Source of the DNA: Parcubacteria group bacterium GW2011_GWA2_42_14 | GTDB taxonomy: Bacteria > Patescibacteriota > Minisyncoccia > Sungbacterales > GWA2-42-14 | Length of the DNA stretch: 64,000 nucleotides | Direction: 5' to 3' | Assembly: GCA_000998135.1 (NCBI GenBank) | Contig: LCCV01000004.1 | Location: forward strand, 21,681 to 85,680 | Shown: one piece after another, positions 10,622 to 61,705 of the stretch | Numbering within the stretch: position 1 is the stretch's first letter | Layout of the letters: each line of letters opens with the position of its first letter | Translations under genes and position numbers: made by a program | Notes under the pieces: model-generated | The model's database searches: none | Told to the model about the DNA's origin: nothing | What the model saw: only the letters and a program-made list of their open reading frames with translations

Positions 10622-10630
10622 ATTGTTTTT

Positions 10631-10752: not shown

Positions 10753-10763
10753 TTAAAGGAATT

Positions 10764-42808: not shown

Positions 42809-42812
42809 AATT

Positions 42813-43202
42813 ATGACAAAATTTCAATCTCTCTATGAAGATTTTCGCAGCGCTCTTGAACGTTTTGACGAGATTCTAAAAGAACCCAAGAATGATATAG
42901 TGCGGGATTCCGCCATTAAGCGGTTTGAATTGGTTTTTGAGCTTGCCTGGAAAACAACTAAGGCTTATCTTGAAGATTACCATAATGGCACTTGCGTATC
43001 GCCACGCGAGTGTTTTCGCGAAGCATTTCGTATCGGCCTAATTGAACATGATGAACACTGGATAGGCATGACTGCCACGAGGAATTATACCGTGCATGCC
43101 TATAAACAAGCGCTTGCTGAAAAGATATATGTTGAGTTGCCTCAAACACTTATAATGTTTAAAAAACTCGCCGAAGCCTTCGAAAAAAATAAATCCGCTT
43201 AA
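42813..43202 (+). CDS. HEPN-domain protein (HepT-like toxin, HI0074 family)
   Basis: RDSAIKRFELVFELAWK ... TRNYTVHAY (Rx4-6H). Start lies within 8 nt of the MNT stop. The upstream in-frame ATG at 42744 overlaps the MNT gene and is probably not the real start. Confidence 0.7.
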   Translation: MTKFQSLYEDFRSALERFDEILKEPKNDIVRDSAIKRFELVFELAWKTTKAYLEDYHNGTCVSPRECFREAFRIGLIEHDEHWIGMTATRNYTVHAYKQALAEKIYVELPQTLIMFKKLAEAFEKNKSA

Positions 43203-45877: not shown

Positions 45878-46279
45878 ATGGTCTTTGTCAGAAATTTAGC
45901 GTTTTTTGTTGTTCTTATTGCGGTTCTGTCGTTTGTTTTTGTTTTACCCGTGTTTGCCGAGTCAAATTTTCAGCCACAGAACTTGATTGGCGAATGGTGG
46001 GCTGATTGGAATTATAGAAATATTGTGAGCGGTAAGTTATTTTTGACTATATTATCCGTTGAAGGAATAAAAGTTTCCGGTAAGTTCGAGCTTACCGGCG
46101 CTAAGGCACCAAATGAAGAATTTAAAGATGGCATTCTCGAAGGGAATACGCTTAAGATTACAACTGAATATCAGTATATTGAACTTGTTTTTGAAGGTAA
46201 GACGTTGTCTGGTTTTGCCTTGAGCGATCCTTATAAGGCAACGCGTTCAGAAATTAAAAATGGCGTTAAGGTAAAATAA
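45878..46279 (+). CDS. hypothetical secreted protein
   Basis: N-terminal signal peptide (FFVVLIAVLSFVFVLPVFA). Confidence 0.4.
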   Translation: MVFVRNLAFFVVLIAVLSFVFVLPVFAESNFQPQNLIGEWWADWNYRNIVSGKLFLTILSVEGIKVSGKFELTGAKAPNEEFKDGILEGNTLKITTEYQYIELVFEGKTLSGFALSDPYKATRSEIKNGVKVK

Positions 46280-46454: not shown

Positions 46455-46895
46455 CTAAGCGCCCTCCTTTGAGGTTCTTTTGAACTCGAAAGTGCCGCTG
46501 TCGTATTTGTTTTTGTACGTTCCTCTAATGAGGAGCGGATTGACAAGCCAGAACATCATTTCAGTGCTGTTATCGAGGGTACCGATATCGCTGGAAGGAG
46601 CGTCAATCAGGATTTTGCCGTTCTCGAATTTTCCGATTGACATGGAGGAGTACGGCGGGGCAGGCGGTTCGGGCGTTTGAAACATCACCACCGTTACGGT
46701 ATTTGTTTCGGTGTCTGGAGCAAAAGCTGCATGCACCGGCGCATTATCGTGTTTTGGAGCGTCCGAAACCCATTTTCCGGTCCAGATGCCCTGGAAAAGC
46801 ATGATATTGAATTCTTCCGCGGTCGCCGGTAGAACGGTAAACAGCGAGATGAGTAGTGAAACGGTAAGCGAAAGAGCGGCGTTTTTCTTCAACAT
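46455..46895 (-). CDS. hypothetical secreted protein
   Basis: Signal peptide (LSLTVSLLISLFTVLPATA). Confidence 0.4.
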   Translation of the reverse strand: MLKKNAALSLTVSLLISLFTVLPATAEEFNIMLFQGIWTGKWVSDAPKHDNAPVHAAFAPDTETNTVTVVMFQTPEPPAPPYSSMSIGKFENGKILIDAPSSDIGTLDNSTEMMFWLVNPLLIRGTYKNKYDSGTFEFKRTSKEGA

Positions 46896-47223
46896 TGAAT
46901 CCCTCTTATTCTTGTTGTTGGTATGTTTAGATTGTTGTGGAAGAACCTCTTATTTTATTATATCAAAATTAAATAAATTTGTCAATAGTATTGACATAAT
47001 TCGCGCATTTATTGTTGAATTGGTATGATTTTAAGCCATTTTATGAGTATACTAAAAATTTAAAATAAGTCTACCAATTGTAAAATAGATAGAATTTTAC
47101 AAAAGCATATTGTATAAAGCAACCGGTGGTAAAAGTGGTGGAAAAATCCTTATTAATATTTTGTTTGACAAGTAAGTAAATATAGTGCTATTTTGGTGTA
47201 AGCGCTTTAACAATGGTTAAGGA

Positions 47224-48126
47224 TTGGGTATGAAACTTTTAGGCACCGGCCTTGCGCTTCCTTCAACGGAGGTCAAGAATGAAGATATCGCTTTTATACT
47301 GCCATCAGATGTTATAGAACGAAAGACAGGTATTCGATCTCGATACATAGTTAGCGACGAAACCGTGAGCCAGATGGCTGCAAAAGCTGTTAGGGAAGCT
47401 TGCCAATCAGCCAAGCTTCCCATTGAAGACATTCAGCATATTGTTTGTTCAACTAATTCAGGAGAACAATGGGTGCCGCCTACGGTTGCTCGCGTTGCCA
47501 GGCATCTAGGATATTGCGGTCCCGGTTTTGATATCAATGCGGCGTGTGTCGGAAGCATTACGGCTTTGCGTCTCGCGCTTTTTTTGCCAAGTCCGTCTGC
47601 TGTTGTAGCTACCGAGCATGTAACGCCTTTTACCGTGCAGCAACCAGGCGATTGGCCTTCTGTTATTTTTGGTGATGGAGCTGGTGCGGCAGTTATTGAA
47701 GCAGGAAAGTCGCTAATTGGATGGGTTGGCGGCATGAATCCCGAAGGCCACGACTGGATTCAAGTTCCAAAAGGCGGGTACTGCCAGATGAATGGGCCAA
47801 AACTTTTAGAATCTGCGATTCCGCTTATGACCGCCGCACTTACTAATGCCGCTAAGCAGTGTGGTTTACATCCTAAAGAGCTGGATATAATTATACCGCA
47901 TCAGGCAAATCTTCGGATTATAGAAGCATGCATGCAAAAATGGAACGTTTCATCCGAGCGAGTGATAATAACAGTAGATAAATTCGGGAATACTTCTTCT
48001 GCCTCTGTCTTAATGGCGCTTGCCTGGGCGAATCTACATGGAAAGATCAGACGCGGTCAGTGGATTGGCTTAGTTGGATTTGGAGCAGGTCTTATATGGG
48101 AAGCATTGGTGACACGATTGGAATAA
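47224..48126 (+). CDS. 3-oxoacyl-ACP synthase III (FabH)-like condensing enzyme
   Basis: Active-site Cys context NAACVGS, plus HQAN and GNTSSAS motifs. 300 aa. Confidence 0.7.
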   Translation: MGMKLLGTGLALPSTEVKNEDIAFILPSDVIERKTGIRSRYIVSDETVSQMAAKAVREACQSAKLPIEDIQHIVCSTNSGEQWVPPTVARVARHLGYCGPGFDINAACVGSITALRLALFLPSPSAVVATEHVTPFTVQQPGDWPSVIFGDGAGAAVIEAGKSLIGWVGGMNPEGHDWIQVPKGGYCQMNGPKLLESAIPLMTAALTNAAKQCGLHPKELDIIIPHQANLRIIEACMQKWNVSSERVIITVDKFGNTSSASVLMALAWANLHGKIRRGQWIGLVGFGAGLIWEALVTRLE

Positions 48127-48162
48127 TTTATATAAACAAAACCCAACAAAGGAGGAACCACA

Positions 48163-48936
48163 ATGCAAGCATTGCTTTTGGATAATACTGCGGTGGACGA
48201 GGTGATGAAATTTTATAAGACAAATGCAGAAGACGAGGTTCTTTATCCACGAAATCCAGATTGGATAAAAGAACATTTAGGAGATGATTTCTTTTTAACC
48301 GGCATTCTGACGGGCGAGGGTGAAGAGTTGATTGCTGTGGCATGGATGGCTAAGTTGAAAAATTTTGTTTACTTTACGGTTGAGAACGAAAAACTTTTTA
48401 TCAGAAACGACGGCAGTTATGCATACAGCGGCGGATGGTATATTAGGCCTGATTATCGCGGTATGGGAATGTTTAAGCTGCTTGCCGCTACAGTCAATCT
48501 ATTTTGGTTCACTAAAATAAACAAGAATGAATCTGTTCCTTTGTGGGGGCGGATGGTGGGACAGAAGGATGCGGATGGTAGCCCGCTTTTTTGGAACCGA
48601 GTCGGCGAAAGAGTAACAGGGTTACCTTATCATGAACTTTTAGCGCTTCCTTTCGGAACCATGGAGCAAGTAATTTTTGACAGCTGGCCGAAAGATCCCA
48701 TACCTTTGACATGCATCCCGCAGGACATTCTTCGGCAGACGCTGGGTAAAACTCATGAGTCTTTGACCGGCCCTCTTAATCAATTCATTAGGTGGGGGTG
48801 TATAGAAGTTACCGATCGTTTTGTGCCCACGTCTCTTAATCGTTTTCATGTTACTACTAAAAATAGCATTTCTGATCCGGAAAAATTTTTTTATCAAGCG
48901 CTTTCCAAAGTTCTTAATTCCATAAGTGCTGCCTAG
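48163..48936 (+). CDS. hypothetical protein, possibly a GNAT-fold N-acyltransferase
   Basis: 257 aa. No firm motif. The call rests on gene context (downstream of the FabH-like gene) and is weak. Confidence 0.3.
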   Translation: MQALLLDNTAVDEVMKFYKTNAEDEVLYPRNPDWIKEHLGDDFFLTGILTGEGEELIAVAWMAKLKNFVYFTVENEKLFIRNDGSYAYSGGWYIRPDYRGMGMFKLLAATVNLFWFTKINKNESVPLWGRMVGQKDADGSPLFWNRVGERVTGLPYHELLALPFGTMEQVIFDSWPKDPIPLTCIPQDILRQTLGKTHESLTGPLNQFIRWGCIEVTDRFVPTSLNRFHVTTKNSISDPEKFFYQALSKVLNSISAA

Positions 48937-49030
48937 AAAATTCTATCAGTGAAATGTTCGTATAAAAATAAGGCCAGTCGCAATGTGACTGGCTTTTTCT
49001 TGGTAATTTTTCTCAGGGTTTGTACCATTT

Positions 49031-50308
49031 TCAGATGTTTTGGAAAGGTTTAATAATTTCGGCTGGAGGAAGTATGCGGCTGCCTTTTAGCGAAACATCA
49101 TATTTTATCTCAATCGGTTTTATGCGTTTTCGCCGTATTGCGTCGCCGAGCGATTCAGTTGGCGATATGCGCACCTCCCGTTCCAAGATTTCTTTGATGG
49201 TGCTTGTAATAAACGGGGTTGGTTCGTTGATTGGCCGGATGGTGAGGCATAAAAAGAGCAGAAGAAGATTATTTTCCGTAATTTGTTCTATTTGCAGTTC
49301 AAAATCTTCGGTAAAAAATCCCGTAAGTTTTCCAAGCGCCCGTTTTATCGCTTCTTCCCGAAATACAAAGTTTCCGATTTTATATGATTTTTCCGAGTCC
49401 CGGGGGCCAATTACGCCGATTGTTCCATCAGAAAATCCGCATGAACATTTAAAGCCGTTTTTTATAATCATACGGTCTCCCGTATTATATCGTATGAGGG
49501 GTGCAGGAAGCTGGTGAAGCGCTGTAACGATGGATAAGCCGTTAACCGTCTCGAAAATAAAATCTTGAGTATTAAGATGATAAGCGTTCGGGCTTATAGC
49601 TTCTAAGGTGGCGCAAAGAGAAGATCTCATGCCCATAGATGACGGCCCCTCGGTCATGGCGTAGATATAAAGTATTAGCGCTCTTGGATAAACGTGTTTT
49701 AAAAGTGAAATGGCGGCGGAGGTGAGCGGTTCGCCTGTAAGATACAGAAACATAATGTGCGATGGTGAATATCCTTGTTGTTCCAGTGTTTTGGCAAAAG
49801 ATACTGCGGTTGATGGGCGGATACCCAGCCAGTCGACTTCCATTTCGCGCGCGATGTTAGCTGAAAGGATAAAATCGTTAATATCTCCCAAAGATATAAT
49901 AGAACCGGGTGGAAAAAATTGTCCCTGAAGTCCAGCGCCGATAGACGCCGCAGCATTACTTGCGGGTCGTAGCATGAGGCATGATTTGGGAGATTTATTA
50001 GTCAGTTTTTGAATAAAGTTATAATAAGGCGGTATAAAGTGGTGCGATTTAATAGTTATGAGGGGCCGTCCGCCGGTGCCGCTTGAAATATCGGCAAAGT
50101 AGTAGTAATTATTTGAGGTAAATATTGTTCGGTCCTGTACCGATATCGAAAGGAGGTCTTCTTTTGTCAAAATAGGAATTTTTTTTAAGTCATTGTCGTT
50201 TTGAAAATCTTTTTCAGGAAAAAATTCATTTCTTTTCCATAATTCACGATAAAAGTTTGAATTTTGCCATACATAATTTATGAGTTCAACGAGTTTAGTA
50301 GGTTTCAT
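49031..50308 (-). CDS. phenylacetate-CoA ligase (PaaK/CapK/F390-synthetase)-like adenylating enzyme, paralog 1
   Basis: SSGTGGRPL P-loop-like motif and YNTGD. Confidence 0.6.
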   Translation of the reverse strand: MKPTKLVELINYVWQNSNFYRELWKRNEFFPEKDFQNDNDLKKIPILTKEDLLSISVQDRTIFTSNNYYYFADISSGTGGRPLITIKSHHFIPPYYNFIQKLTNKSPKSCLMLRPASNAAASIGAGLQGQFFPPGSIISLGDINDFILSANIAREMEVDWLGIRPSTAVSFAKTLEQQGYSPSHIMFLYLTGEPLTSAAISLLKHVYPRALILYIYAMTEGPSSMGMRSSLCATLEAISPNAYHLNTQDFIFETVNGLSIVTALHQLPAPLIRYNTGDRMIIKNGFKCSCGFSDGTIGVIGPRDSEKSYKIGNFVFREEAIKRALGKLTGFFTEDFELQIEQITENNLLLLFLCLTIRPINEPTPFITSTIKEILEREVRISPTESLGDAIRRKRIKPIEIKYDVSLKGSRILPPAEIIKPFQNI

Positions 50309-50314
50309 GTTATT

Positions 50315-51607
50315 TTATTTTAACACAGCCATATCAATAATTGGCCTAAATTTACCCAAATTAGATGGGTGCTCTAGGTGTCCAACTGTTTTTATTTGAA
50401 AACTTATTTCACTGCCGATGATAGAACGAAATACATTAGAAAGTTGTTGTTGGGCAGAATTATCAAATGACGGCTGTGGTATGATTCGTATTTCTAGGAA
50501 ATCCGTAGAAAGTTTAACGATTTGATATTGTAAAATCTTATTGCAAAATTTGTTGAATATTTCGGCAATTTCAAAATGGTGAATTTTTCTAGGTCCGATA
50601 TTTAAAAAAAGACCAAGCCGTCCATCTATTGTGAATCGTTCTGTTTCAAGGCCGCAGGGGCAGTTATTTTCTAAAATACGCCCGTAATCTCCGGTATCGT
50701 AGCGTATGAAAGGCATATTGTAGTTATTTAGGTCAGTTAGGATTATTCTTCCGCCTTTTTCCGGTGGTACTTGACGGCCGTTTTCATCCACTGTTTCCAA
50801 AATAAATGATTCGCTATTTAAATGAAAATCTTTATGATATTTACACTCAACGCCCACCGCCCCTAATTCTTCTAGTCCGTATTTATTATATAATTCACAT
50901 TGAAGCGTTTTTTCAATAAATACTCTTTGAGAGGAATGCAGCATTTCGCCGTATGATAGTGCGTATTTAAATTTAAGCTGGCTTCCAGGCCCCTTTTCCG
51001 TTATTAACCTGCTTAACTCTATTAATATAGATGGATAGCTTTGAATTATATCCGCATCATGTTGTCTTATAAGTGTTATGACACCCCCGGGGTTTTTAAG
51101 AAAATCCGCAACCGAAATAAAGAGCCGTTGGGGACTGGATGCGGGACTCATACGGATGTTTATTATTTTTGTTTTTCGTATAATATGAGTAAGTGGTATT
51201 CCTGTCCAGTATAAAAATCTTAGTGATAGAAAATCTGCATAAGCAGTTTGCGGCGAGAAAGAGGCGGGAATGAATTTGAAAGGTTCCCCTGTTGAGCCGG
51301 AAGTATGTTTCCATGGTAGCGTTTTTGATACCTCATTATTTATATAATATTCCTGCGGCTTATTCTTGAATACCCTTTTATTTATAATAGGGAGTTGTTT
51401 AAGAATATCAGAATTTGTTATATCCGTTAATTTTAAACCATTAGTATCCCATAAATCATGATATAAAGATATGTTTTTGTAAGCGTAAGCAGTGAGTTTT
51501 TGTAATTTTTTCTCCTGCCATTTTTTTATAACCCACTTTGGCATAGCGTGTATGTCTTTCCAAACCTCAAACCGCGCGCGTTCCATATTTTTTTCTAAGA
51601 TGTTCAT
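50315..51607 (-). CDS. PaaK/CapK-like adenylating enzyme, paralog 2
   Basis: TSGSTGEPFKF and YDTGD. Confidence 0.65.
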   Translation of the reverse strand: MNILEKNMERARFEVWKDIHAMPKWVIKKWQEKKLQKLTAYAYKNISLYHDLWDTNGLKLTDITNSDILKQLPIINKRVFKNKPQEYYINNEVSKTLPWKHTSGSTGEPFKFIPASFSPQTAYADFLSLRFLYWTGIPLTHIIRKTKIINIRMSPASSPQRLFISVADFLKNPGGVITLIRQHDADIIQSYPSILIELSRLITEKGPGSQLKFKYALSYGEMLHSSQRVFIEKTLQCELYNKYGLEELGAVGVECKYHKDFHLNSESFILETVDENGRQVPPEKGGRIILTDLNNYNMPFIRYDTGDYGRILENNCPCGLETERFTIDGRLGLFLNIGPRKIHHFEIAEIFNKFCNKILQYQIVKLSTDFLEIRIIPQPSFDNSAQQQLSNVFRSIIGSEISFQIKTVGHLEHPSNLGKFRPIIDMAVLK

Positions 51608-51734
51608 AGGATGTTAAAATAAAAAAGTAAAAGTAATTGCGGCGCAATAAGGGTATTTTTGGAGTATTTAACAGCAGTTGACCGGTATGTTTAAAAAATA
51701 TTTGATAAAAAATATTTTTATCTATTCCCCCATC

Positions 51735-53048
51735 ATGACAGAATTTTCTCTGTTTATTCCGTCGCAATTAAAATTATTTGCCGGAGAATTGAATAGTGCC
51801 GTATGGAATTGGGCCGCTGCTGAATCTAGAAAATTTTTTGAAGATAGCGACTGGCAGGAATTGGTATTTATTAAGCTTAGAAACATACTTGTTCATGCCG
51901 GCAGAAATGTTCCGTACTGGCGGAGAATTTTTAGGGAAATCGGTTTTAATCCCCAAAAATTTAAAAACTTTGAAGATTTTCAAAAGTTGCCTGTTATTAC
52001 CAGAAAAAAACTAAAAAAAATTCCTATTGAAGAATTAATCGCAAAAAATATTTCAAAAAAATATTTTATACAAGCAGCTACTTCCGGTTCTACCGCCGAA
52101 CCGTTAAAATTTTTTCAAGACGGAAAGATAATTTTATTGCGCCGTCTGTTTCTTTTTTACGAATTAAATTATCCTAATTTTCGTGACGGTCCTTTTTTGT
52201 TAATTGGCCTTCAGACCATAAGGCATTTAAACGGATTGGGGTATCAAGTAGGCGGACATAAGTTGGAAGACGATAATTGGCGGATAAAGATTTTTTATCC
52301 GAACATCCGTTCTTTCCGTCCACGATACATTCTTTCCACCCCATCTTATTTAAAGAGATTTATTTTTTTTTGTCAACGAGATGGTTTTACGGTTGACAGA
52401 TTGGCCGGGGTTTTTTGTTATGGGGAACATTTTGGAGAAGAAGAGCGGCGAAGTGTTGAAGCATTCCTTGGTTGCCCTGCTTATGCTGTTTACGGTTCAC
52501 AAGAATGTTCGCTTATTGCCAGTCAATGCGCTAAATATAATTATCATGTAGCCCCCTGGATGAATTATGTTGAAATCATTGATGATAATGATAAACCGGT
52601 TTCTAGGGGTGTTTTAGGCAGAATTGTTATTACGTCACTTATGAATGAAACAATGCCTTTTATTCGTTATCAACTGGGGGATTTGGGCCGTTTAAGCAGC
52701 GGTAAGTGTTTATGCGGCAATTCGAGTCCAATTATTGAAATTGAGGGCAGGATTGTCGGTAATATAGAATTTTCTGATGGTACGGCCTTTCCATTATATC
52801 CCATATTGCAATATTTGGCAGATCATTATTCATCGGAAATTAAACAATTTCAGATTGAACAAATGTCTAAATTTCGGTTAATCTTTAGATACATCCCAAT
52901 GTATACCGGACAATCTTTAGATTTTGAGCGGGTGATGACAGAATACTTAAATTCCATAGTTAGGAATAGGATGGACATTAAGATGGAGGTCATTGATTAT
53001 ATTTTTCCGAACCAAAATGGAAAAACTCCTATATTTATAAAAAGATAA
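51735..53048 (+). CDS. PaaK/CapK-like adenylating enzyme, paralog 3
   Basis: TSGSTAEPLKF and YQLGD. Confidence 0.6.
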   Translation: MTEFSLFIPSQLKLFAGELNSAVWNWAAAESRKFFEDSDWQELVFIKLRNILVHAGRNVPYWRRIFREIGFNPQKFKNFEDFQKLPVITRKKLKKIPIEELIAKNISKKYFIQAATSGSTAEPLKFFQDGKIILLRRLFLFYELNYPNFRDGPFLLIGLQTIRHLNGLGYQVGGHKLEDDNWRIKIFYPNIRSFRPRYILSTPSYLKRFIFFCQRDGFTVDRLAGVFCYGEHFGEEERRSVEAFLGCPAYAVYGSQECSLIASQCAKYNYHVAPWMNYVEIIDDNDKPVSRGVLGRIVITSLMNETMPFIRYQLGDLGRLSSGKCLCGNSSPIIEIEGRIVGNIEFSDGTAFPLYPILQYLADHYSSEIKQFQIEQMSKFRLIFRYIPMYTGQSLDFERVMTEYLNSIVRNRMDIKMEVIDYIFPNQNGKTPIFIKR

Positions 53049-53059: not shown

Positions 53060-53173
53060 ATGATTCAGGATAAAAATATAACGCCGGTGATAATTCTAGC
53101 CGCGGGCCGAGGCCGGCGGCTGATGCCGTTTACGGCGGACAGGCCGAAGTGTTTGGTGGCGGCTGGAAAGTAG
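53060..53173 (+). pseudogene. truncated duplicate of the 5' end of the NTP-transferase gene at 55495
   Basis: Encodes MIQDKNITPVIILAAGRGRRLMPFTADRPKCLVAAGK*. The DNA is about 90% identical to 55540-55615. Confidence 0.6.
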
Positions 53174-55381: not shown

Positions 55382-55478
55382 AATAGACCTGTTGCTTATT
55401 AAGATTTTAGCCGTTTTTTTAAAAAATTAGTGGCTTAAAATAAGGGTTTTTTGCATCAAATTTTCCCAAAAAATTATT
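55382..55478. repeat. element F8 (copy 2; core inverted relative to 41036-41128)
   Basis: See 41036-41128. Confidence 0.6.
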
Positions 55479-55494
55479 AATGCGGAACAAAGCC

Positions 55495-56286
55495 ATGGTT
55501 TCAAAACCGGAAAAATCTAAGCATGATATACGCGTTTTAATCCTTGCCGCGGGCCGAGGCCGGCGGCTGATGCCTTATACGGCGGACAGGCCCAAGTGTT
55601 TGGTGGAGGTAGGTGGCCGGCCGATTTTATTTTATCAGCTGCGGGCTCTGGAAAAACACGGCATTAAAAACGTTGTTATAGTTGTCGGTTATCAGGCGGA
55701 AAAAATCAAAGATTATGTTCGCGATAATTTTTCCGGTTTAAAAGTTGAGTTTGTTTATAATCCTGATTACTTATCCACTAACGATATTTATTCATTGTAT
55801 CTGGCGCGTTCTTATTTGAATGACGGCGTTATTATTCTTGATTCCGATGTTTTGTTTCATTCGAAAATGCTTTCCGAATTATCAGAGTATCATTCCGGTC
55901 GAAGCGCTATTTGTGTCAGAGTCGGCAGCTGCGGAGACGAAGAAATGAAAGTGGGGGTTAATTCCAAAGGGATGGTCGTTCGCCTTAGTAAGGGCTTGCC
56001 GCCTGAAGAAACAGTTGGTGAGTCCATGGGAATATCTTTTTTTTCAGATAAATTTTCAAATTATCTCTCGCGTACCTTGGAAAAGATTATTGATATGGGC
56101 GGGATTCTTTTATATAGAGAGGCGGCAATTGAAAGAGTTATTTCTGAACATGCGGAACCATTGCATCTTTTGAATATAAGCCGGTATCCCGCTATTGAAA
56201 TTGATTTTCCGGAAGACATAGAAAGAGCCGAGAAAGAGATTTTGCCGCAAATAATTGGTGAATTTAAATTGACACAGTATAGATAA
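55495..56286 (+). CDS. sugar-phosphate / phospho-alcohol nucleotidyltransferase (NTP_transferase fold)
   Basis: ILAAGRGRRLMPYTADRPKCLVEVGGRPIL signature (G-x-G-x-R-L). The upstream in-frame ATG at 55480 is a possible alternative start. Confidence 0.65.
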   Translation: MVSKPEKSKHDIRVLILAAGRGRRLMPYTADRPKCLVEVGGRPILFYQLRALEKHGIKNVVIVVGYQAEKIKDYVRDNFSGLKVEFVYNPDYLSTNDIYSLYLARSYLNDGVIILDSDVLFHSKMLSELSEYHSGRSAICVRVGSCGDEEMKVGVNSKGMVVRLSKGLPPEETVGESMGISFFSDKFSNYLSRTLEKIIDMGGILLYREAAIERVISEHAEPLHLLNISRYPAIEIDFPEDIERAEKEILPQIIGEFKLTQYR

Positions 56287-57050: not shown

Positions 57051-57081
57051 ATAAGATTTTATGCTGAAATTTTACCCTTCG

Positions 57082-58188
57082 ATGAAAATGAATGACCTCT
57101 TTTTAAATTTTAAGATCCTGCTGTCGTTTTGGGACATAATCAAGCGGCGGGATTTTATTTTGGGCAAGGCCGTCAAAGATTTTGAGAAGAAACTCGCGTT
57201 ATATCTTGAAGCGCCTTATGTTTTAGGAGTGGCCAGCTGCACCGACGCACTGATTCTATCCTTAAAGGCGCTTGGCATCGGGCATGGGGACGAAGTAATT
57301 GTTCCGGCCGTCAGTTTTTTTTCAACTGCCGGAGCGGTTTCCTGGGTTAACGCCAAACCGGTTTTTGTTGATATTGAAGAAAAAAGTTTTAATATCAACT
57401 CGGATTTAATTGAAAAAGTCATTATGCCAAAAACTAAAGCGATAATTGTTGCGCATCTTGCCGGTAGAATGGCAGCTCTGGAAAAAATTTCTGCTCTTAC
57501 AGGAAAGTATAATTTATATTTAATTGAAGACGCGGCTCAAACTCTCGGCGCTAAATATAAAAATCGCCATATCGGATATTACGCCGATTTGGCTTGTTTA
57601 AGTTTTAATCCCCAAAAAATTCTTTCGGCTTACGGCGACGGCGGAGCGATTGTGACCGGACAAACCGCACTGGCGGAAAAAATTTCTATGATGAGAATGT
57701 ACGGAGCTAACGGCTATAAAGAAGTAAGTTTTCGCCACCCGATTGCCGGTGTTTCCAGCCGATTAAGTTCTTTTCAGGCGGCCGTATTAAATATAAAACT
57801 TGACCAATTGAACAAAATTATTGAAAAATGGAGGAAAAATTATTTTTTGTACTCGGAACTTTTGAGGGGCGTTGACAGCATCGTTCTTCCGGAAACCCCT
57901 TCCGAGGACTATTACATTAACGGTTATCGTTTTATTATTTTAACAAAAAAAAGAGATGAATTGCTTAAATACCTAAGAGATAATAGGGTAGATGCGCGCA
58001 GCCACTATTCGGTTCCGCTTCCTTATCTTGGCGCGTTTGAGTATTTGAATTATAAAAAGGGTGATTTTCCGGTTGCCGAAAAATTTGCCGAAGAATCCCT
58101 GGCGCTTCCTTTAAGCCACAGGATATCGGAATCGGAAATGCGCCATATCGCTGATTTAATAAGGAAATTTTTTGAGGTTATCGAATAA
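57082..58188 (+). CDS. DegT/DnrJ/EryC1/StrS-family PLP-dependent sugar aminotransferase
   Basis: FILGKAVKDFEKKLALYLEAPYVLGVASCTDAL, and a PLP-lysine region ...SFNPQKIL... The upstream in-frame ATG at 57061 is a possible alternative start. Confidence 0.8.
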   Translation: MKMNDLFLNFKILLSFWDIIKRRDFILGKAVKDFEKKLALYLEAPYVLGVASCTDALILSLKALGIGHGDEVIVPAVSFFSTAGAVSWVNAKPVFVDIEEKSFNINSDLIEKVIMPKTKAIIVAHLAGRMAALEKISALTGKYNLYLIEDAAQTLGAKYKNRHIGYYADLACLSFNPQKILSAYGDGGAIVTGQTALAEKISMMRMYGANGYKEVSFRHPIAGVSSRLSSFQAAVLNIKLDQLNKIIEKWRKNYFLYSELLRGVDSIVLPETPSEDYYINGYRFIILTKKRDELLKYLRDNRVDARSHYSVPLPYLGAFEYLNYKKGDFPVAEKFAEESLALPLSHRISESEMRHIADLIRKFFEVIE

Positions 58189-58593: not shown

Positions 58594-58875
58594 ATGGCAA
58601 AGTATATTGTTTTAACAACTTCGCTTTTTGACCGAGAAGCCGGGAAACTCGCTAAATTCCATAGGAATATCACCGATGTTTTATCCTCGGTGATTTTTGT
58701 TTTGGAAAACGACCCTTTCAATAATTCACGGCATTATGATATTCGTAAACTAGAAAGCGTTAAACACGGAGAAGGTCAGTTTCGAATTCGCTTAGGACAA
58801 TGGCGGATCCGCTATGATGTGGAGGATGATAAGGTTATTCTTTATTCTTTTCGCGACCGTAAAGAAGGGTATTGA
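58594..58875 (+). CDS. RelE/ParE-family toxin
   Basis: C-terminal WRIRYDVEDDKVILYSFRDRKEGY, typical of RelE/ParE. Confidence 0.6.
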   Translation: MAKYIVLTTSLFDREAGKLAKFHRNITDVLSSVIFVLENDPFNNSRHYDIRKLESVKHGEGQFRIRLGQWRIRYDVEDDKVILYSFRDRKEGY

Positions 58876-58894
58876 AAATAGAGTTTGTTTATAC

Positions 58895-60214
58895 ATGGAA
58901 CAAAAATATTTGTTTGAAGAAAACCCGAATCCCAATGCCAAAATCGCTTTTGTAGTTTGGAACGCTAATGATTTTTATGTTTATAAGGATGTTTACAAGC
59001 ATCTTCCCGAGGCGGAAATTGTTGTTAGCGATACATTTTATAGCCCTATTTGGCAAAGAGGCGATGAACATATTACAGATTTAATTAATCTTTTGAAACG
59101 TCACGGCGTTAATTGGCGGGTTATAAGGCATCTTAATTTGAGCGATGAAAAGGAAAAAGAAATAATTGAAAATTTTTTCGCGAAATATGAAATAATTGTT
59201 GCTCTTCGATTATGGACGCCACTAGCAACAGCAATGTTCAATAGCTGGCTTTTTAAGAAAAAAAGCGTATTGATGAATTACGGAGCGGGCAAAGATATTA
59301 TTACCTTTGCTCCGTGGGTTGCCCACTTTAACATTGTATTGAGCGATGGACCGCGCGAGCATCATTATTTTAATCTTTTAAGCAATTCTTATATTGTTGG
59401 CGTGCCGAAGTATGATAATTGGTTTAGTCAGACAATTGATTCAGTTAAAATTGAACAAATAAAAAACCGTTTGGACCCCGCCAAAAAAACATTGTTGTAT
59501 CTTCCAACTCATAGCGCTTTTTCATCGCTTTATAAATTTAGTGATGCCGTCATATCTTTGGCGGATAAATATAATATTTTAATCAAGTTGCACTATTTAA
59601 ACTCCATTACTGAAGAAAATATTGTAAAAAAATTCAAAGAGCATAAAAAAATTTTTCTTTTTGATGAAAAGGATGACCTCTTACCATTATTTTGTCTTGC
59701 CGATGCTGTTTTAAGCGATTCGTCGTCAGCGTCGCTTGAAGCGATATTGGTGGATAAACCGTTGGTAATTCTTGACACCCAGGAAGATGAGAAAAACATG
59801 ACCGAGGAAAAAGAGTATAATGGATTATGGTATTCCTCCGGCCAGGTTTACTCTAAAAGCATTGAACAGCAGATTAAAAAGCCGGAAATGGCGGTTGGCG
59901 AAGTTGTTAAGAATCCCGAAGAAGTGGGGGTGGCTGTTGCAAGGTCCTTTGGAGCGGAACCCCGGTTTAAGGAGAATAGAAAAAGATTGCGCGATGAGCT
60001 TTTTTCTTACAACGACGGAAAATGCGGGGAACGCGCCGCTGGTGTCATTAGAAAATATCTTCATGGTGAAATAAAACCGGAGCCGCCGATGCTCGGCATG
60101 GCCATCCGCAGTTATTTTTCTTCTCAGGCCAAAGAATATCAATTGAAATTGCGTAAGAAAGAGAAAGAGATAGAGTGGTTGAAAGAAATAGCGGCAGGGC
60201 GTAAAAAGATTTAG
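58895..60214 (+). CDS. CDP-polyol phosphotransferase, TagB/TagF-like, paralog 1
   Basis: [13 protein letters not shown] motif region. Paralogous to 61712-63070 end to end (both start ..NPNPNAKI.F and end [11 protein letters not shown]). The upstream in-frame ATG at 58814 is a possible alternative start. Confidence 0.55.
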
Positions 60215-60227: not shown

Positions 60228-60989
60228 ATGATTTCGCGCCACAAACATTATATAAAAACAGCGCTGGTTACAGGCGGGGTTGAGGGTATCGGTCGGGCTG
60301 TTGTTTTGCGTCTGGTAGACGACGGTTTTCGGATTGCCATAAATTATAAAGATGCAAAAACAAAAAATTATGCCGAATTACTGGCTGAAAATTTAAGAAA
60401 GAAAAACGCCGATTTTATGATTATCAAAGCGGATATATCTCAAGAAAAACAGGTAAGAGAAATGATGCGAATAATCAAGAATAGGTTCGGCGGTTTGGAT
60501 GTTGTTGTAAATAACGCTGGAATAAATCAAACCGAAATTTTTGCCAAGCTTGATTTAAGGCGCTTTAATGATGTTTTGCAAACAAATTTGTTCGGTTCCG
60601 TTTTGGTTACGAAACATGCTTTGCCGCTTTTGAAAAAATCAAATGACCCGCGAATAATTTTTATTTCTTCGGTTAATTCTTTTATCGGCTCTCCTCATAG
60701 GGCCGCTTATATCGTTTCTAAAAGCGGAATTTTGGGCTTGTCCCGGGCTTTGGCCGCGGAGCTTGCCCCGAAAATTTTGGTAAATACGGTGGTGCCGGGA
60801 TATATTGATACCAAGATGTTTCATAAATTCAGTAGGGGTCCTGTCGGCGAAAAAATAAAAAAAATTCCACTGGGAAGAATAGGAAGGCCGGAAGAAGTGG
60901 CGTCGGTTGTATCTTTTCTTTGCTTTCAAGATGCCTCTTATATTACCGGGCAATGCATCCACGTAAACGGAGGACTTTATTTTTCATGA
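60228..60989 (+). CDS. short-chain dehydrogenase/reductase (SDR)
   Basis: [11 protein letters not shown] Rossmann motif, NNAG, and the YxxxK catalytic pair (YIVSK). Confidence 0.8.
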
Positions 60990-61705
60990 TTTCTAAAAAT
61001 AAAATAAAAAAAATTAGGGTTGTGGCAATTTTATTGGCGGGAGGAAGGGGTGAAAGAATGGGAGGCGTTTTTAAACAGTTTTTAAAAATTAGCGGGAAGC
61101 CGGTCTTTTTTTATTCTTTGGAGAAATTGATTGACAATGAATTTATTAACGAAATTATTGTCGTTGTTCCCGAACAAAAAGTAAATTATACTAAACGTCT
61201 TATTGAAAAAAAATTAAATAATGCAAAAGTTAGGGTTATTCCGTGTGAAAAAACGCGAAAATTATCGTCTTCGCGCGTAATTTTTGATTTTAAAAAAAGA
61301 GAATGTCCGCCGGATTATGTCATTTTTCACGATGCCGCCCGCCCGGCAATTTCTGAACGCATAGTCAATAGTGTTATTTGCGAAGCCGTTCGTTGCGGCG
61401 GGGCGGTTGTTGCCGGAAAAGCGGCCGACCTTATTTTTGAAGCCGGAAGCGGGTATATACATCGCGCCATACCCAAAGAAATGGCGTATTGTGGTTTTAC
61501 TCCGCAATGTTTTCGGTTCAAAGACCTATATGAGGCGCATAAAAAATCTGCCGATAAAAAAATTTTTGATTCGGCGGATAATATTGAACTTTTATTGCGT
61601 TTTTCCAAAAAATGCCGTATTAAACTAATTGAGTATTCGCGGCCCATTCATAAAATTACTTTTTCGTACGATATCGCGATGATTAAGCAGTTTTTAAAAA
61701 AATGA
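60986..61705 (+). CDS. IspD/TarI-like cytidylyltransferase (CDP-polyol synthesis)
   Basis: [27 protein letters not shown]. 4-nt ATGA overlap with the SDR gene. Confidence 0.6.

What the first reader, a model, noticed from the sequence alone, without database searches (positions are those of the whole stretch)
47224..53048. FabH-like condensing enzyme plus three tandem PaaK/CapK-like adenylating enzymes
A KAS III-type enzyme with an intact Cys/His/Asn triad context, a 257-aa protein of unclear fold, and three paralogous aryl/acyl-adenylate-forming ligases (TSGSTGxP and Y[ND/QL]TGD motifs) sit together upstream of sugar-modifying genes. CPR-like genomes generally lack fatty-acid synthesis, so a FabH-like enzyme here is unexpected. 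The set suggests activation and condensation of an acyl or aryl acid and its transfer onto an amino sugar or glycopolymer: a lipidated or acylated surface polymer, or a small natural product. Three divergent ligases suggest several substrates.
Basis: partly seen in the sequence, partly recalled or inferred. Interest (0 to 1): 0.6.

Follow-up and report, generated by a model that had tools for sequence, protein, structure and literature searches.

The report
CPR sugar-acylation cassette with FabH-like enzyme
The genes are real and belong to a gene set found only in a few groups of ultra-small (CPR/Parcubacteria) bacteria; it most likely attaches unusual acyl groups to an amino sugar of a teichoic-acid-like surface polymer, which is moderately interesting but a variation on known sugar-tailoring logic.

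Summary
All five genes exist as described, in Candidatus Sungbacteria. The FabH-like protein keeps Cys/His/Asn. It scores below curated FabH cut-offs and has lost E. coli FabH residues W32, R151 and K214 (CoA/ACP contacts, from memory). No carrier protein lies nearby. The 257-aa protein is a GNAT acyltransferase of the AstA type (model pLDDT 94; Foldseek 1yle E 2.5e-13). Its family is tiny and seen only in Parcubacteria.

The three ligases are PaaK-type adenylate-forming enzymes. They are ancient paralogues (21-25% identity) on different strands, each with its own orthologues.

Across about 16 distinct related loci the constant core is a DegT aminotransferase, the GNAT and an adjacent PaaK-like ligase. 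In one lineage this core is fused to TagD/TagF teichoic-acid genes. In this window it is followed by a nucleotidyltransferase, DegT, two TagF-like genes and an SDR+IspD pair. The FabH-like gene is an accessory found in three of those loci, and all 12 clusters of its clade trace to GNAT-bearing contigs.

Best reading: dedicated acid-activating ligases feed a GNAT that N-acylates an amino sugar of a surface glycopolymer. The KAS III extends the acyl unit, as VioS is proposed to in the Pseudomonas viosamine island. Substrates are unknown. I rate it a new variant of a known kind.

The parts
47224..48126 (+). KAS III (FabH-derived) condensing-enzyme homologue, 300 aa. Databases annotate the start at the ATG at 47230, giving 298 aa.
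   Evidence: Pfam ACP_syn_III_C 96.7 bits. NCBIfam FabH 203.5 and 191.1 bits, below the cut-offs of 249 and 292. Best PDB hit 2ebd, E 6e-47. C108/H226/N256 are invariant. E. coli W32, R151, K214 and F87 are replaced, R249 is kept. A promoter-like site lies at 47165-47194.
48163..48936 (+). AstA-type GNAT acyltransferase, 257 aa. It is the constant centre of the cassette.
   Evidence: Pfam AstA 2.2e-9. AF2 model pLDDT 94.4. Foldseek 1yle E 2.5e-13, then GNAT N-acetyltransferases. 33 clusters at 90% identity, all named ones CPR. 10 representatives with E<1e-10 among 1.84 billion.
48970..48996 (.). Bidirectional terminator-like hairpin between the FabH-GNAT operon and the convergent Lig2-Lig1 operon.
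   Evidence: 12-bp stem followed by a T-run, detected on both strands.
49031..50308 (-). Lig1: divergent PaaK-type adenylate-forming enzyme, 425 aa. It is the usual partner of the GNAT.
   Evidence: No Pfam hit; weak NCBIfam FlxY/DVU1553/PaaK hits. Orthologues at 40-58% identity in most related loci, almost always convergent directly downstream of the GNAT. The family has 17 close clusters, then a gap to E 1e-9. AF2 model pLDDT 78.7 matches PaaK1/BT_0428 over its full length, E about 1e-18. SSG, TE, D278 and R303 are invariant; there is no invariant C-terminal Lys.
50315..51607 (-). Lig2: PaaK/CapK-like adenylate-forming enzyme, 430 aa.
   Evidence: NCBIfam DVU_1553 131 bits, FlxY 108, PaaK 66-84, all below cut-offs. 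PDB 4r1l E 2e-23. TSGSTGEP, YDTGD and a C-terminal GK are present. Orthologue in L011 at 42% identity, plus two further paralogues there.
51678..53048 (+). Lig3: PaaK-like adenylate-forming enzyme, 456 aa (databases annotate 453 aa).
   Evidence: NCBIfam FlxY 114.5 bits, cut-off 520. PDB ClxA 9s3l E 4.6e-24 and 4r1l E 9e-21. Orthologues in Sungbacteria (42%) and Azambacteria (38%), where it sits between the GNAT and TagD-TagF.
45878..46279 (+). Small secreted protein 'sec133', conserved beside the cassette.
   Evidence: N-terminal hydrophobic signal-like segment. 37% identical homologue in L011 in the same neighbourhood. No Pfam hit.
46455..46895 (-). Small secreted protein 'sec146', conserved beside the cassette in three candidate phyla.
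   Evidence: 43-53% identical homologues next to the cassette in Sungbacteria, Azambacteria and Niyogibacteria loci. A perfect sigma-70-like promoter lies at 46985-46957. No Pfam hit.
55480..56286 (+). Sugar-1-phosphate nucleotidylyltransferase-like protein.
   Evidence: Pfam NTP_transferase and NTP_transf_3. NCBIfam hits to GlmU/AglF/RmlA-type N-terminal domains, all below cut-off. A 72-nt copy of its 5' part lies at 53091-53162, directly after Lig3.
57061..58188 (+). DegT/DnrJ/EryC1-type sugar aminotransferase.
   Evidence: Pfam 7e-99. Resembles LegC/PseC/4-amino-4,6-dideoxyhexose transaminases, all below cut-offs. A DegT gene lies directly upstream of the GNAT (or of FabH-GNAT) in most related loci.
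58814..60214 (+). TagF-like polyol-phosphate transferase 1.
   Evidence: Pfam Glyphos_transf 1.2e-14. 40% identical to the TagF-like gene that follows GNAT-Lig3-TagD in the Azambacteria locus.
60228..60989 (+). FabG/acetoacetyl-CoA-reductase-like SDR.
   Evidence: adh_short_C2 1e-56. NCBIfam FabG 216 bits (cut-off 298) and acetoacetyl-CoA reductase 203 bits (cut-off 302). Its role is ambiguous: either partner of the IspD-like gene in CDP-alditol synthesis, or reductase for a 3-oxoacyl unit.
60920..61705 (+). IspD/TarI-like cytidylyltransferase.
   Evidence: Pfam IspD 1.4e-26. NCBIfam ribitol-5-P cytidylyltransferase 117.8 bits, cut-off 166. The databases' call of this gene (239 aa) overlaps the end of the SDR gene by 4 bases (L021 8517-9278 and 9275-9994).
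61712..63070 (+). TagF-like polyol-phosphate transferase 2.
   Evidence: Pfam Glyphos_transf 7e-17. 38% identical to TagF-like 1.

Best explanation
This is the Sungbacteria version of a Parcubacteria-specific tailoring cassette for a cell-surface glycopolymer.

Inferred mechanism:
1. A DegT aminotransferase makes a nucleotide-linked amino sugar.
2. The AstA-type GNAT transfers an acyl group from a thioester, most likely an acyl-CoA, onto that amine.
3. These organisms lack fatty-acid and general acyl-CoA metabolism. The acyl donor is therefore made on the spot by a dedicated PaaK-type acid-activating ligase. Lig1 is the usual partner of the GNAT.
4. In Sungbacteria and one related lineage, a FabH-derived KAS III sits immediately upstream of the GNAT. 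It would extend the activated acid by two carbons to a 3-oxoacyl unit without a carrier protein. The FabG-like SDR might then reduce that unit. This parallels the roles proposed for VioS and VioR in the Pseudomonas syringae viosamine island.
5. Lig2 and Lig3 are old paralogues. They would activate further acids, either as primer or extender for the KAS III or as extra substituents.
6. The acylated sugar ends up in a teichoic-acid-like poly(alditol/glycerol phosphate) polymer built by the TagF-like enzymes.

Shown here: the gene identities, the protein folds, conservation of the catalytic residues, absence of a carrier protein nearby, and the conserved gene neighbourhood. Inferred: every substrate, the use of CoA, the direction of flow and the final polymer.
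For: - **GNAT.** High-confidence GNAT fold. The nearest structure is succinyl-CoA-dependent AstA. A Q/RxxG CoA-loop motif follows strand beta-4.
- **GNAT-ligase pairing.** In all about 14 informative loci a PaaK-like ligase lies directly beside the GNAT, or one gene away in L020/L035. It is Lig1 in types A and C, and Lig3 in type B.
- **DegT.** Present in about 12 of those loci, usually as the gene just upstream of the GNAT (same calls).
- **Teichoic-acid link.** The Azambacteria-type loci read GNAT-Lig3-TagD-TagF-DegT. One variant reads FabH-GNAT-Lig3-TagD-TagF.
- **This window.** It carries a nucleotidyltransferase, DegT, two TagF-like genes and an SDR+IspD-like pair downstream. Peptidoglycan genes (PBP1, SLT, M23) and DUF4015 lie upstream.
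- **KAS III.** The triad is invariant. All 12 clusters of its clade trace to GNAT-bearing contigs. Three are seen directly in loci, and nine are inferred from identical longest-contig lengths.
- **Operon structure.** FabH and the GNAT look like a two-gene operon with a promoter-like site and a terminator-like hairpin.
- **No carrier protein.** None was found in the 64-kb window or in four related loci. K214 is charge-reversed; from memory it belongs to the FabH ACP-docking patch. Both fit carrier-free chemistry.
- **Precedent.** In the viosamine island, vioA (DegT type), vioS (KAS III), vioR (3-oxoacyl reductase), acp, vioB and vioM are proposed to make dTDP-N-(3-hydroxy-1-oxobutyl)-2-O-methylviosamine. 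Mutant mass spectrometry supports vioA, vioB, vioT, vioR and vioM. The roles of vioS and acp rest on homology (PMC3927599). FdhC, a GNAT that puts 3-hydroxybutanoyl on an amino sugar, appears among the structural neighbours at rank 49.
- **Lipid background.** CPR bacteria are described as putative symbionts unable to synthesise membrane lipids (PMC7242380 abstract).
Against: - No substrate is known for any of the five proteins.
- No NDP-sugar 4,6-dehydratase lies in the window. The amino-sugar route is therefore incomplete here. An NAD-epimerase/dehydratase-family gene lies just beyond the window end. The sister locus has a GFO/IDH/MocA oxidoreductase that could supply a keto sugar.
- In this window DegT is 8 kb from the GNAT, separated by toxin-antitoxin cassettes.
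- The SDR is coupled to the IspD-like gene and may serve only CDP-alditol synthesis.
- The closest solved relatives of Lig3 and Lig1 include the AMP-ligases ClxA, NatL2 and AjiA1. PDB ligands show them adenylating or binding aryl acids. From memory they couple aryl acids without CoA, so the CoA-ligase assumption may be wrong.
- Lig1 lacks an invariant C-terminal catalytic Lys.
- A source of malonyl thioester for a condensing reaction is unknown.
- The KAS III has lost the residues that, from memory, stack on the CoA adenine in E. coli FabH.
- KAS III-like enzymes can also act as plain acyltransferases.
Confidence: 0.45

Rival explanations
1. The ligases do not make CoA thioesters. They act as stand-alone amide or ester synthetases that use the acyl-adenylate directly, as NatL2, AjiA1, ClxA and BagE do (from memory). 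They would attach acids or amino acids to the amino sugar or to hydroxyls of the polyol-phosphate polymer. That would be a carrier-free analogue of teichoic-acid D-alanylation. The GNAT would simply use a common donor such as acetyl- or succinyl-CoA.
For: - ClxA is the best solved relative of Lig3. NatL2 and AjiA1 rank just behind the BT_0428 PaaK for Lig1.
- The BagE/FevW NCBIfam model gives weak hits.
- There are 1-5 ligase paralogues per locus, more than a single GNAT needs.
- No carrier protein was found.
- DltA structures appear among the more distant structural neighbours of the Lig1 model.
Against: - The strict one-to-one pairing of the GNAT with an adjacent ligase is more easily explained by donor supply.
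- Sequence similarity to the ester- and amide-forming enzymes is no greater than to true PaaK CoA ligases (4r1l, 2y27).
- Nothing here distinguishes the two chemistries.
Confidence: 0.2
2. The block is a small-molecule biosynthetic cluster. Aryl or acyl acids would be activated by PaaK-like ligases and condensed by a PqsD/DarB-like KAS III. The product would be amidated by the GNAT and released as a diffusible metabolite. The neighbouring sugar genes would be unrelated.
For: - Weak NCBIfam similarity to flexirubin FlxY (ligases) and FlxB (SDR).
- PqsD appears among the PDB hits of the KAS III, E 3e-25.
- No ACP was found.
- YcaO/nitroreductase RiPP-type genes lie about 3 kb beyond the polymer genes.
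Against: - The KAS III is far closer to FabH (203 bits) than to DarB or StlD (26-34 bits).
- It is absent from most loci that carry the GNAT and ligases.
- DegT, TagD, TagF, secreted proteins, TPR and beta-propeller proteins are the conserved neighbours.
- No cyclase, amidohydrolase, transporter or tailoring oxidase typical of such clusters is present.
Confidence: 0.12
3. The genes are salvage or housekeeping functions with no common product. The ligases would activate scavenged fatty or aromatic acids for membrane-lipid remodelling, and the FabH-like enzyme would be a remnant of fatty-acid synthesis.
For: CPR bacteria must acquire lipids from outside (PMC7242380). FabH and acyl-CoA ligases are lipid-metabolism families.
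Against: - The protein is at most 37-38% identical to genuine FabH, for example P0049 in a fabD-fabH-fabG-acp-fabF operon.
- It scores below the curated FabH cut-offs and its CoA/ACP contact residues are altered.
- No other fab or pls genes lie in the window.
- Its clade occurs only with the GNAT cassette.
- PaaK-type enzymes are not the long-chain FadD type.
Confidence: 0.08

Closest known systems
Viosamine island of Pseudomonas syringae pv. tabaci, and orfA-orfN of the P. aeruginosa PAK flagellin glycosylation island (PMC3927599)
   Same: A DegT-type aminotransferase, a KAS III homologue, a 3-oxoacyl-reductase-type SDR, an N-acyltransferase and (in type C loci) a methyltransferase are grouped together. 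There they are proposed to put a short 3-hydroxyacyl group on a 4-amino sugar that decorates a surface structure.
   Different: - No ACP here.
- The acyltransferase is an AstA-type GNAT, not VioB, which is annotated as a dTDP-viosamine acetyltransferase of 213 aa.
- One to five PaaK-type ligases are added.
- The target appears to be a TagF-type polymer rather than flagellin.
- The KAS III is present in only some lineages.
AstA/AruAI arginine/ornithine N-succinyltransferase (PF04958; PDB 1yle)
   Same: Best sequence-profile and best fold match for the 257-aa protein. It has a GNAT core and shares the conserved 'G.P(L)FW..VG' segment.
   Different: - About 80 residues shorter.
- NCBIfam scores of 16-27 bits against cut-offs of 284-521.
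- 12% identity in the structural alignment.
- No ast operon.
- The profile built from the family does not recover canonical AstA proteins among its 14 hits at E<1e-3 in 1.84 billion proteins. One weak 312-aa hit, P0185, was not examined.
PaaK-family ANL enzymes: phenylacetate-CoA ligases PaaK1/2 and BT_0428; the AMP-ligases NatL2, AjiA1 and ClxA; uncharacterised DVU_1553, FlxY and 'CapK' proteins
   Same: Two-domain PaaK-type fold (Lig1 model, E about 1e-18). P-loop, TE, Y.TGD and CxCG motifs are present. Lig2 and Lig3 keep the C-terminal GK lysine.
   Different: - All three fall far below every curated family cut-off.
- Lig1 forms an isolated Parcubacteria-only clade and lacks an invariant C-terminal Lys.
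- There is no paa, benzoxazole or flexirubin gene context.
FabH (beta-ketoacyl-ACP synthase III) of type II fatty-acid synthesis
   Same: Best-matching family. The Cys-His-Asn triad, the oxyanion-hole GFG motif, N247 and R249 are retained.
   Different: - Below the NCBIfam FabH cut-offs.
- No fab operon and no ACP.
- W32, R36, R151, K214 and F87 are replaced.
- The clade is confined to the GNAT cassette. Its nearest outgroup lies on a high-GC contig that looks like a mobile element.
Wall-teichoic-acid / group-2-capsule type poly(alditol phosphate) loci (TagD or TarI/J-Bcs1 plus TagF-like polymerases)
   Same: Two Glyphos_transf proteins and an SDR+IspD-like pair in this window. TagD+TagF directly follow the GNAT and ligase in the Azambacteria loci.
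   Different: - No TagO, TagA, TagB, TagGH or Dlt genes were seen.
- The GNAT, PaaK-like and KAS III genes are, to my knowledge, not part of described teichoic-acid loci.

Membership tests
FabH / KAS III | ACP_syn_III and ACP_syn_III_C domains above Pfam gathering score | tested here: met
   96.7 bits (cut-off 26.6) and 26.6 bits (cut-off 24).
FabH / KAS III | Cys-His-Asn catalytic triad | tested here: met
   C108/H226/N256 align with E. coli C112/H244/N274 and are invariant in the 12-sequence alignment.
FabH / KAS III | Score above curated NCBIfam FabH cut-offs | tested here: not met
   PRK09352 203.5 bits (cut-off 249). TIGR00747 191.1 bits (cut-off 292.1).
FabH / KAS III | ACP partner and fab operon context | tested here: not met
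   No ACP-like ORF in the window or in L011-L014 (best E>1). No fab genes in the window. A genuine FabH (P0049) sits in a fabD-H-G-acp-F operon. The rest of the genome was not searchable.
FabH / KAS III | CoA-adenine and ACP-docking residues of E. coli FabH (W32, R151, K214, R249) | tested here: not met
   W32 to V, R151 to G/W and K214 to E in the clade. R249 is kept. These residues are kept in 3 of the 4 bona fide FabH sequences in the alignment (P0114 differs). The residue roles and the E. coli sequence are from memory.
FabH / KAS III | Decarboxylative Claisen condensation activity | not testable with these tools
   Needs an enzyme assay.
AstA (arginine N-succinyltransferase, PF04958) | Pfam hit above gathering score | tested here: met
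   36.8 bits (cut-off 29.4). It covers only profile positions 124-235 of 337.
AstA (arginine N-succinyltransferase, PF04958) | Curated NCBIfam AstA/AOST cut-offs | tested here: not met
   16-27 bits against cut-offs of 284-521.
AstA (arginine N-succinyltransferase, PF04958) | Fold similarity to a solved AstA-family structure | tested here: met
   Foldseek 1yle E 2.5e-13, TM 0.58 on the query length, 12% identity. Model pLDDT 94.4.
AstA (arginine N-succinyltransferase, PF04958) | About 340-aa architecture and ast catabolic operon context | tested here: not met
   257 aa. The neighbours are DegT, a KAS III and PaaK-like ligases.
PaaK phenylacetate-CoA ligase | ANL core motifs (P-loop, TE, Y.TGD, A8 Arg, A10 Lys) | tested here: inconclusive
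   Lig2 and Lig3 have all motifs, including the C-terminal GK. Lig1 has SSG, TE, D278 and R303 invariant, but its P-loop is degenerate after SSGT and it has no invariant C-terminal Lys.
PaaK phenylacetate-CoA ligase | Curated equivalog cut-off | tested here: not met
   TIGR02155 23.5-74 bits against a cut-off of 646. Haloarchaeal PaaK 38-84 bits against 700.
PaaK phenylacetate-CoA ligase | PaaK-type two-domain fold | tested here: met
   The Lig1 model matches 2y27, 4r1l and 4rvo over about 450 columns, E about 1e-18. Lig2 and Lig3 match 4r1l by sequence, E 2e-23 and 9e-21.
Coenzyme F390 synthetase / FlxY / DVU_1553 / BagE-FevW | Curated NCBIfam cut-offs | tested here: not met
   - F390: at most 52.6 bits (cut-off 458.7).
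- FlxY: at most 114.5 bits (cut-off 520).
- DVU_1553: at most 131 bits (cut-off 300).
- BagE/FevW: at most 56.3 bits (cut-off 800).
Viosamine-island-type N-acyl amino-sugar pathway | DegT aminotransferase + KAS III + N-acyltransferase in one locus | tested here: met
   Window genes. L011 reads DegT-FabH-GNAT contiguously.
Viosamine-island-type N-acyl amino-sugar pathway | Dedicated ACP | tested here: not met
Viosamine-island-type N-acyl amino-sugar pathway | 3-oxoacyl reductase dedicated to the acyl unit | tested here: inconclusive
   A FabG-like SDR lies at 60228-60989. It is coupled to the IspD-like gene and lies 11 kb from the KAS III. No SDR was seen in L011.
Teichoic-acid-type polymer locus | TagF-family polymerase plus CDP-alditol/glycerol synthesis genes | tested here: met
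   Two Glyphos_transf proteins and SDR+IspD in the window. CTP_transf_like plus Glyphos_transf in L012.
Teichoic-acid-type polymer locus | Linkage-unit and export genes (TagO/A/B, TagGH) | tested here: inconclusive
   None appears among the window ORFs that were scanned. The rest of the genome was not searchable.

The most novel reading that the evidence does not exclude
The cassette is a carrier-protein-free mini assembly line. PaaK-type ligases and a FabH-derived KAS III have lost the canonical CoA/ACP contact residues. Together they would build an unusual (aryl/acyl)-beta-ketoacyl or peptide-like side chain directly on an amino sugar of a teichoic-acid-like polymer. The organism has no fatty-acid synthesis. 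At least some of the ligases would act as CoA-independent amide or ester synthetases. That would be a new chemistry for decorating the CPR cell surface, the interface with their hosts.
Probability: 0.15. Interest if true: 0.7.

Novelty: new variant of a known kind. Interest (0 to 1): 0.45.

Why it matters
CPR/Parcubacteria are thought to live attached to other cells, yet almost nothing is known about their surface polymers.

- **Testable genetic handle.** This cassette is restricted to a few Parcubacteria lineages. It contains two protein families seen nowhere else in the searches run here: an AstA-type GNAT and the Lig1 clade of PaaK-like enzymes.
- **FabH without fatty-acid synthesis.** It explains why a FabH-like gene can occur in a genome without fatty-acid synthesis. 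The gene has been recruited for glycan tailoring and is not a lipid-synthesis remnant.
- **New enzymology, if confirmed.** It would add a new acyltransferase/ligase pairing to the known ways of N-acylating amino sugars. It could also supply new ACP-independent condensing and ligating enzymes.

Tried and rejected
- **Carrier-protein search.** An HMM and phmmer searches used E. coli AcpP, B. subtilis DltC and a CPR-contig ACP. They were run against all six-frame ORFs of at least 45 aa in the window and in L011-L014. Nothing scored better than E about 1.
- **Solved-structure search with the GNAT family profile.** Only 1yle appeared, at E 0.69. The fold search was needed.
- **Literature on PaaK/CapK/F390-type ligases in glycan amidation.** Searches found nothing usable. 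I recalled that a methanogen glycan threonine-transfer gene might be F390-synthetase-like. I could not confirm this and do not use it.
- **Literature on this cassette in CPR.** Nothing specific was found.
- **Flexirubin / dialkylresorcinol (DarB/FlxY/FlxB) reading.** Rejected. DarB/StlD scores are 26-34 bits against 203 bits for FabH, and all Flx scores are far below cut-off.
- **Recent tandem duplication of the ligases.** Rejected. They share 21-25% identity and each has separate orthologues.
- **The 14-kb segment bounded by the 84-nt inverted repeat as an assembly artefact.** Rejected. Three independent assemblies show the same arrangement.

Full report
**1. What is in the sequence**

The window is part of contig MHQY01000033.1 of assembly GCA_001820775.1. 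The organism is Candidatus Sungbacteria bacterium RIFCSPLOWO2_12_FULL_41, a CPR/Parcubacteria bacterium. The rest of the window carries housekeeping genes. These include GatA, GatB, LigA, AlaRS, GyrB, NusG, L11, Tmk and ThyX, and also MgtE, PBP1, an M23 peptidase and SLT. No fab genes are present.

The five flagged ORFs exist as described. The FabH-like gene (47224-48126, +) and the 257-aa gene (48163-48936, +) look like a two-gene unit. A promoter-like site lies at 47165-47194. A 12-bp-stem hairpin at 48970-48996 reads as a terminator on both strands.

Lig2 (50315-51607) and Lig1 (49031-50308) lie on the minus strand, 6 bp apart, and converge on that hairpin. Lig3 (51678-53048) is on the plus strand and diverges from Lig2 across a 70-bp spacer. 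'Three tandem ligases' therefore needs qualifying. The genes are adjacent but lie in three orientations relative to their neighbours. They share only 21-25% identity.

**2. The FabH-like protein**

- It matches ACP_syn_III_C (9.4e-28) and solved FabH structures; the best is Aquifex 2ebd at E 6e-47.
- C108, H226 and N256 align with E. coli C112, H244 and N274. They are invariant in a 12-sequence alignment that spans the clade and genuine FabHs.
- It scores below both curated NCBIfam FabH cut-offs: 203.5 against 249, and 191.1 against 292.
- It belongs to a tight clade of 12 clusters at 73-100% identity.
- Three sequences follow at 46-48% identity. The bulk of true FabH comes next, at 39% or less and mostly 32-37%.
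- One true FabH at 37-38% identity (P0049) lies in a fabD-fabH-fabG-acp-fabF operon.

I mapped the protein onto E. coli FabH, using a sequence recalled from memory. The recalled sequence places C112, H244, N274, W32, R36, R151, R249 and F87 at their literature positions. The mapping shows these changes in the clade:

| E. coli residue | In the clade |
|---|---|
| W32 | V or L |
| R36 | K |
| R151 | G (W in another alignment) |
| K214 | E |
| F87 | V |
| R249, N247, GFG oxyanion motif | retained |

Three of the four genuine FabH sequences in the alignment keep W32, R36, R151 and K214. From my own knowledge, W32 and R151 sandwich the CoA adenine in E. coli FabH. K214 belongs to the basic ACP-docking patch.

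No ACP-like or PCP-like ORF exists in the window or in four related loci. The enzyme therefore looks catalytically competent but not like a housekeeping, ACP-dependent FabH.

**3. The 257-aa protein**

- Pfam gives AstA (2.2e-9), covering only the middle third of that profile.
- With 24 homologues as alignment, AlphaFold2 gave a confident model (pLDDT 94.4, pTM 0.89).
- Foldseek against the PDB puts the AstA-family structure 1yle first (E 2.5e-13, TM 0.58).
- A long list of GNAT N-acyltransferases follows, including SpeG, Eis, AAC(6') and GNA1. FdhC, a sugar N-3-hydroxybutanoyltransferase, is at rank 49.
- The sequence after strand beta-4 carries a Q/RxxG motif typical of the GNAT CoA-pyrophosphate loop.

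The family is very small. There are 33 clusters at 90% identity. A profile search of 1.84 billion representatives found only 10 proteins with E<1e-10. Every named member is Parcubacteria: Sungbacteria, Azambacteria, Niyogibacteria or Kaiserbacteria. The 'unclear fold' is thus resolved. The protein is an acyl-CoA-type N-acyltransferase of a new, narrow subfamily.

**4. The ligases**

All three are PaaK-type members of the ANL superfamily. ANL enzymes activate a carboxylic acid as an acyl-adenylate.

- Lig2 and Lig3 match B. thetaiotaomicron BT_0428, a PaaK, at E 2e-23 and 9e-21. Lig3's best hit is ClxA at E 4.6e-24. NatL2, AjiA1 and PaaK1/2 follow (names).
- All three fall far below every curated NCBIfam cut-off: PaaK, F390 synthetase, FlxY, DVU_1553 and BagE/FevW.
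- Lig1 has no Pfam hit. An AF2 model (pLDDT 78.7) aligns over its full length with PaaK1 and BT_0428 at E about 1e-18.
- Lig1's family is isolated. There are 17 close clusters, all named ones CPR, then a jump to E 1e-9.
- Lig1 keeps SSG(T), the TE motif, D278 of Y.TGD and R303. The P-loop after SSGT is variable. There is no invariant C-terminal lysine; the equivalent position is mostly Arg.
- Lig2, Lig3 and the 'Lig443' group of other loci keep a lysine at the canonical C-terminal position, as GK in Lig3 and in most Lig2-group sequences.

**5. Comparative context**

I examined the neighbourhoods of GNAT homologues from three sources. These were the protein database, species-representative genomes and JGI metagenomes. 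After removing duplicates this gives about 16 distinct loci, which fall into three architectures.

| Type | Where | Gene order |
|---|---|---|
| A | Sungbacteria; this window is a rearranged example | DUF4015, sec146, sec133, DegT, FabH, GNAT, Lig1(-), Lig2, Lig3, TPR, ligase, GFO/IDH/MocA, ligase, PIG-L |
| B | Azambacteria-like | sec146, [sec133, FabH], GNAT, Lig3, TagD, TagF, DegT |
| C | Niyogibacteria, Kaiserbacteria and others | DegT, GNAT, Lig1(-), methyltransferase, beta-propeller, PGA_cap, Lig443, TPR/PQQ |

- In every locus long enough to judge (about 14), a PaaK-like ligase lies next to the GNAT. In the Kaiserbacteria locus it is one gene away.
- DegT is present in about 12 of those loci.
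- The FabH-like gene occurs in only three distinct loci.
- All 12 clusters of its clade trace to GNAT-bearing contigs. Three are seen directly. Nine are inferred because the longest-contig lengths of the FabH hits and the GNAT hits coincide.
- Each window ligase has its own orthologues. Lig1 reaches 40-58% identity in types A and C. Lig2 reaches 42% in L011. Lig3 reaches 38-42% in types A and B.

**6. Surroundings in the window**

Downstream lie a sugar-1-P nucleotidylyltransferase, DegT and a TagF-like protein. A FabG-like SDR, an IspD/TarI-like cytidylyltransferase and a second TagF-like protein follow. As annotated in the databases, the IspD-like gene overlaps the end of the SDR gene by 4 bases. 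A GT2 gene and an NAD-epimerase/dehydratase-family gene lie just beyond. TagF-like 1 is 40% identical to the TagF-like gene of the type B locus.

These genes are interrupted by toxin-antitoxin and other cassettes: a MntA-HepT fusion, DUF5678 with an aspartyl protease, a PIN pair and a ParE-like pair. Two duplicated gene fragments mark insertion scars. One is 78 nt of the DUF4015 3' end, repeated at 41773-41850. The other is 72 nt of the nucleotidyltransferase 5' part, repeated at 53091-53162, right after Lig3. The ancestral arrangement was probably one contiguous glycopolymer locus, as it still is in the sister Sungbacterium.

**7. Mechanism**

The best-supported reading is a tailoring cassette for a surface glycopolymer. 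DegT makes an amino sugar nucleotide. The GNAT N-acylates it from a thioester donor. The adjacent PaaK-type ligase makes that donor from a free acid. This is a sensible arrangement in organisms described as unable to make membrane lipids (PMC7242380).

In Sungbacteria the KAS III sits immediately upstream of the GNAT, between DegT and the GNAT in the sister locus. It would extend the acyl unit to a 3-oxoacyl group, and the FabG-like SDR might reduce that group. This mirrors the Pseudomonas viosamine island. There vioA, vioS (KAS III), vioR (reductase), acp, vioB and vioM are proposed to give dTDP-N-(3-hydroxy-1-oxobutyl)-2-O-methylviosamine. Mutant data support vioA, vioB, vioT, vioR and vioM; the roles of vioS and acp rest on homology (PMC3927599).

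The extra ligases would supply the primer or extender, or add further substituents. The TagD/TagF linkage points to a teichoic-acid-like polymer as the destination.

All substrates, CoA use and the final product are inferred. I give this reading 0.45.

The main rival (0.2) keeps the same target. It has the ligases acting without CoA as amide or ester synthetases, as their solved relatives NatL2, AjiA1 and ClxA do (chemistry from memory; the PDB ligands are listed). A diffusible natural product (0.12) and unrelated salvage functions (0.08) fit the conserved neighbourhood poorly.

**8. Comparison with what is known, and novelty**

The logic of aminotransferase plus N-acyltransferase plus acyl-unit synthesis is known from O-antigen and flagellin glycan pathways. 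Several things differ here:

- the acyltransferase family, an AstA-type GNAT of a tiny CPR-only subfamily;
- the constant pairing with PaaK-type ligases, including the isolated Lig1 clade;
- the absence of a carrier protein;
- the altered CoA/ACP surface of the KAS III;
- the link to TagF-type polymer genes;
- the CPR host.

None of the five proteins passes a curated family threshold other than the broad Pfam domains. I therefore class the finding as a new variant of a known kind, and I score interest at 0.45. It is a solid, testable lead on CPR surface chemistry and on why a FabH homologue persists without fatty-acid synthesis. Nothing seen here demands a new principle.

Noticed in passing
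window 41042-41125 and 55397-55480: A perfect 84-nt inverted repeat whose arms lie 14,271 nt apart. It brackets the whole FabH/GNAT/ligase block together with the inserted TA and AAA cassettes. Both arms follow the same 12-nt motif, TAGACCTGTTGC, on the plus strand. There are only two copies in the window, and three independent assemblies show the same arrangement. It could permit inversion of the segment, or it could be a small mobile or promoter element in two orientations.
   Followed up: partly
window 40258-40335 vs 41773-41850; 53091-53162 vs 55538-55609: Direct repeats that duplicate the 3' end of the DUF4015 gene (78 nt, 95%) and the 5' part of the nucleotidyltransferase gene (72 nt, 92%). 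They flank inserted cassettes: g209/g207 in one case, and the MntA-HepT fusion with DUF5678 and an aspartyl protease in the other. They look like insertion scars that split an ancestral contiguous locus.
   Followed up: partly
window 45878-46279 (+) and 46455-46895 (-); homologues in L011, L012, L019, L025-L029, L033: Two small secreted proteins without a Pfam family are conserved next to the cassette in Sungbacteria, Azambacteria and Niyogibacteria. They share a G(E/A)W.G.W motif, and sec146 has a conserved PAPPAPSFSS-like segment. A third relative, lipoprotein-like with a GEWEG motif, lies at L021 13494-13940. They could be substrates, carriers or binding proteins for the polymer.
   Followed up: partly
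L015 (contig Hain_H51..., 26 kb), gene at 10001-10930: One of the three nearest relatives of the FabH-like clade outside it (P0047, 46% identity) lies on a 66% GC contig. That contig carries a Gp3-like recombination directionality factor, a Hydrolase_2 protein and two proteins of more than 1,200 aa, so it looks like a phage or integrative element. The gene is translationally coupled to unannotated 476-aa and 218-aa proteins. The 218-aa protein carries a GNAT-like QGRGLR motif but has no Pfam hit.
   Followed up: partly
L021 14098-17104 (about 2-5 kb beyond the 3' end of the window on the same contig): A YcaO protein is followed by a fusion of a methyltransferase-like domain (Pfam MTS) with a nitroreductase domain. 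This pair is typical of azoline/azole RiPP clusters. A 469-aa membrane protein follows, then two TPR proteins homologous to the TPR proteins of the related cassettes in L011, L013 and L014.
   Followed up: no
window 53249-54115 (+): A single ORF fuses a MntA-type nucleotidyltransferase antitoxin domain to a HepT RNase toxin domain (Pfam Polbeta + HepT-like; NCBIfam MntA and HepT). A separate, unfused MntA/HepT pair lies at about 42503-43202.
   Followed up: no
window 1801-2841 (+) and 2892-3635 (+): A DnaJ (J-domain) fused to a Ser/Thr protein kinase, followed by a PP2C phosphatase.
   Followed up: no
L013, L014, L020, L035, L037, L039 (type C loci): A PGA_cap (CapA/MslH-like) protein is translationally coupled to a further PaaK-like ligase ('Lig443'). 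It lies beside a large beta-propeller protein and a methyltransferase. This module replaces FabH, Lig2 and Lig3 in non-Sungbacteria versions of the cassette.
   Followed up: partly
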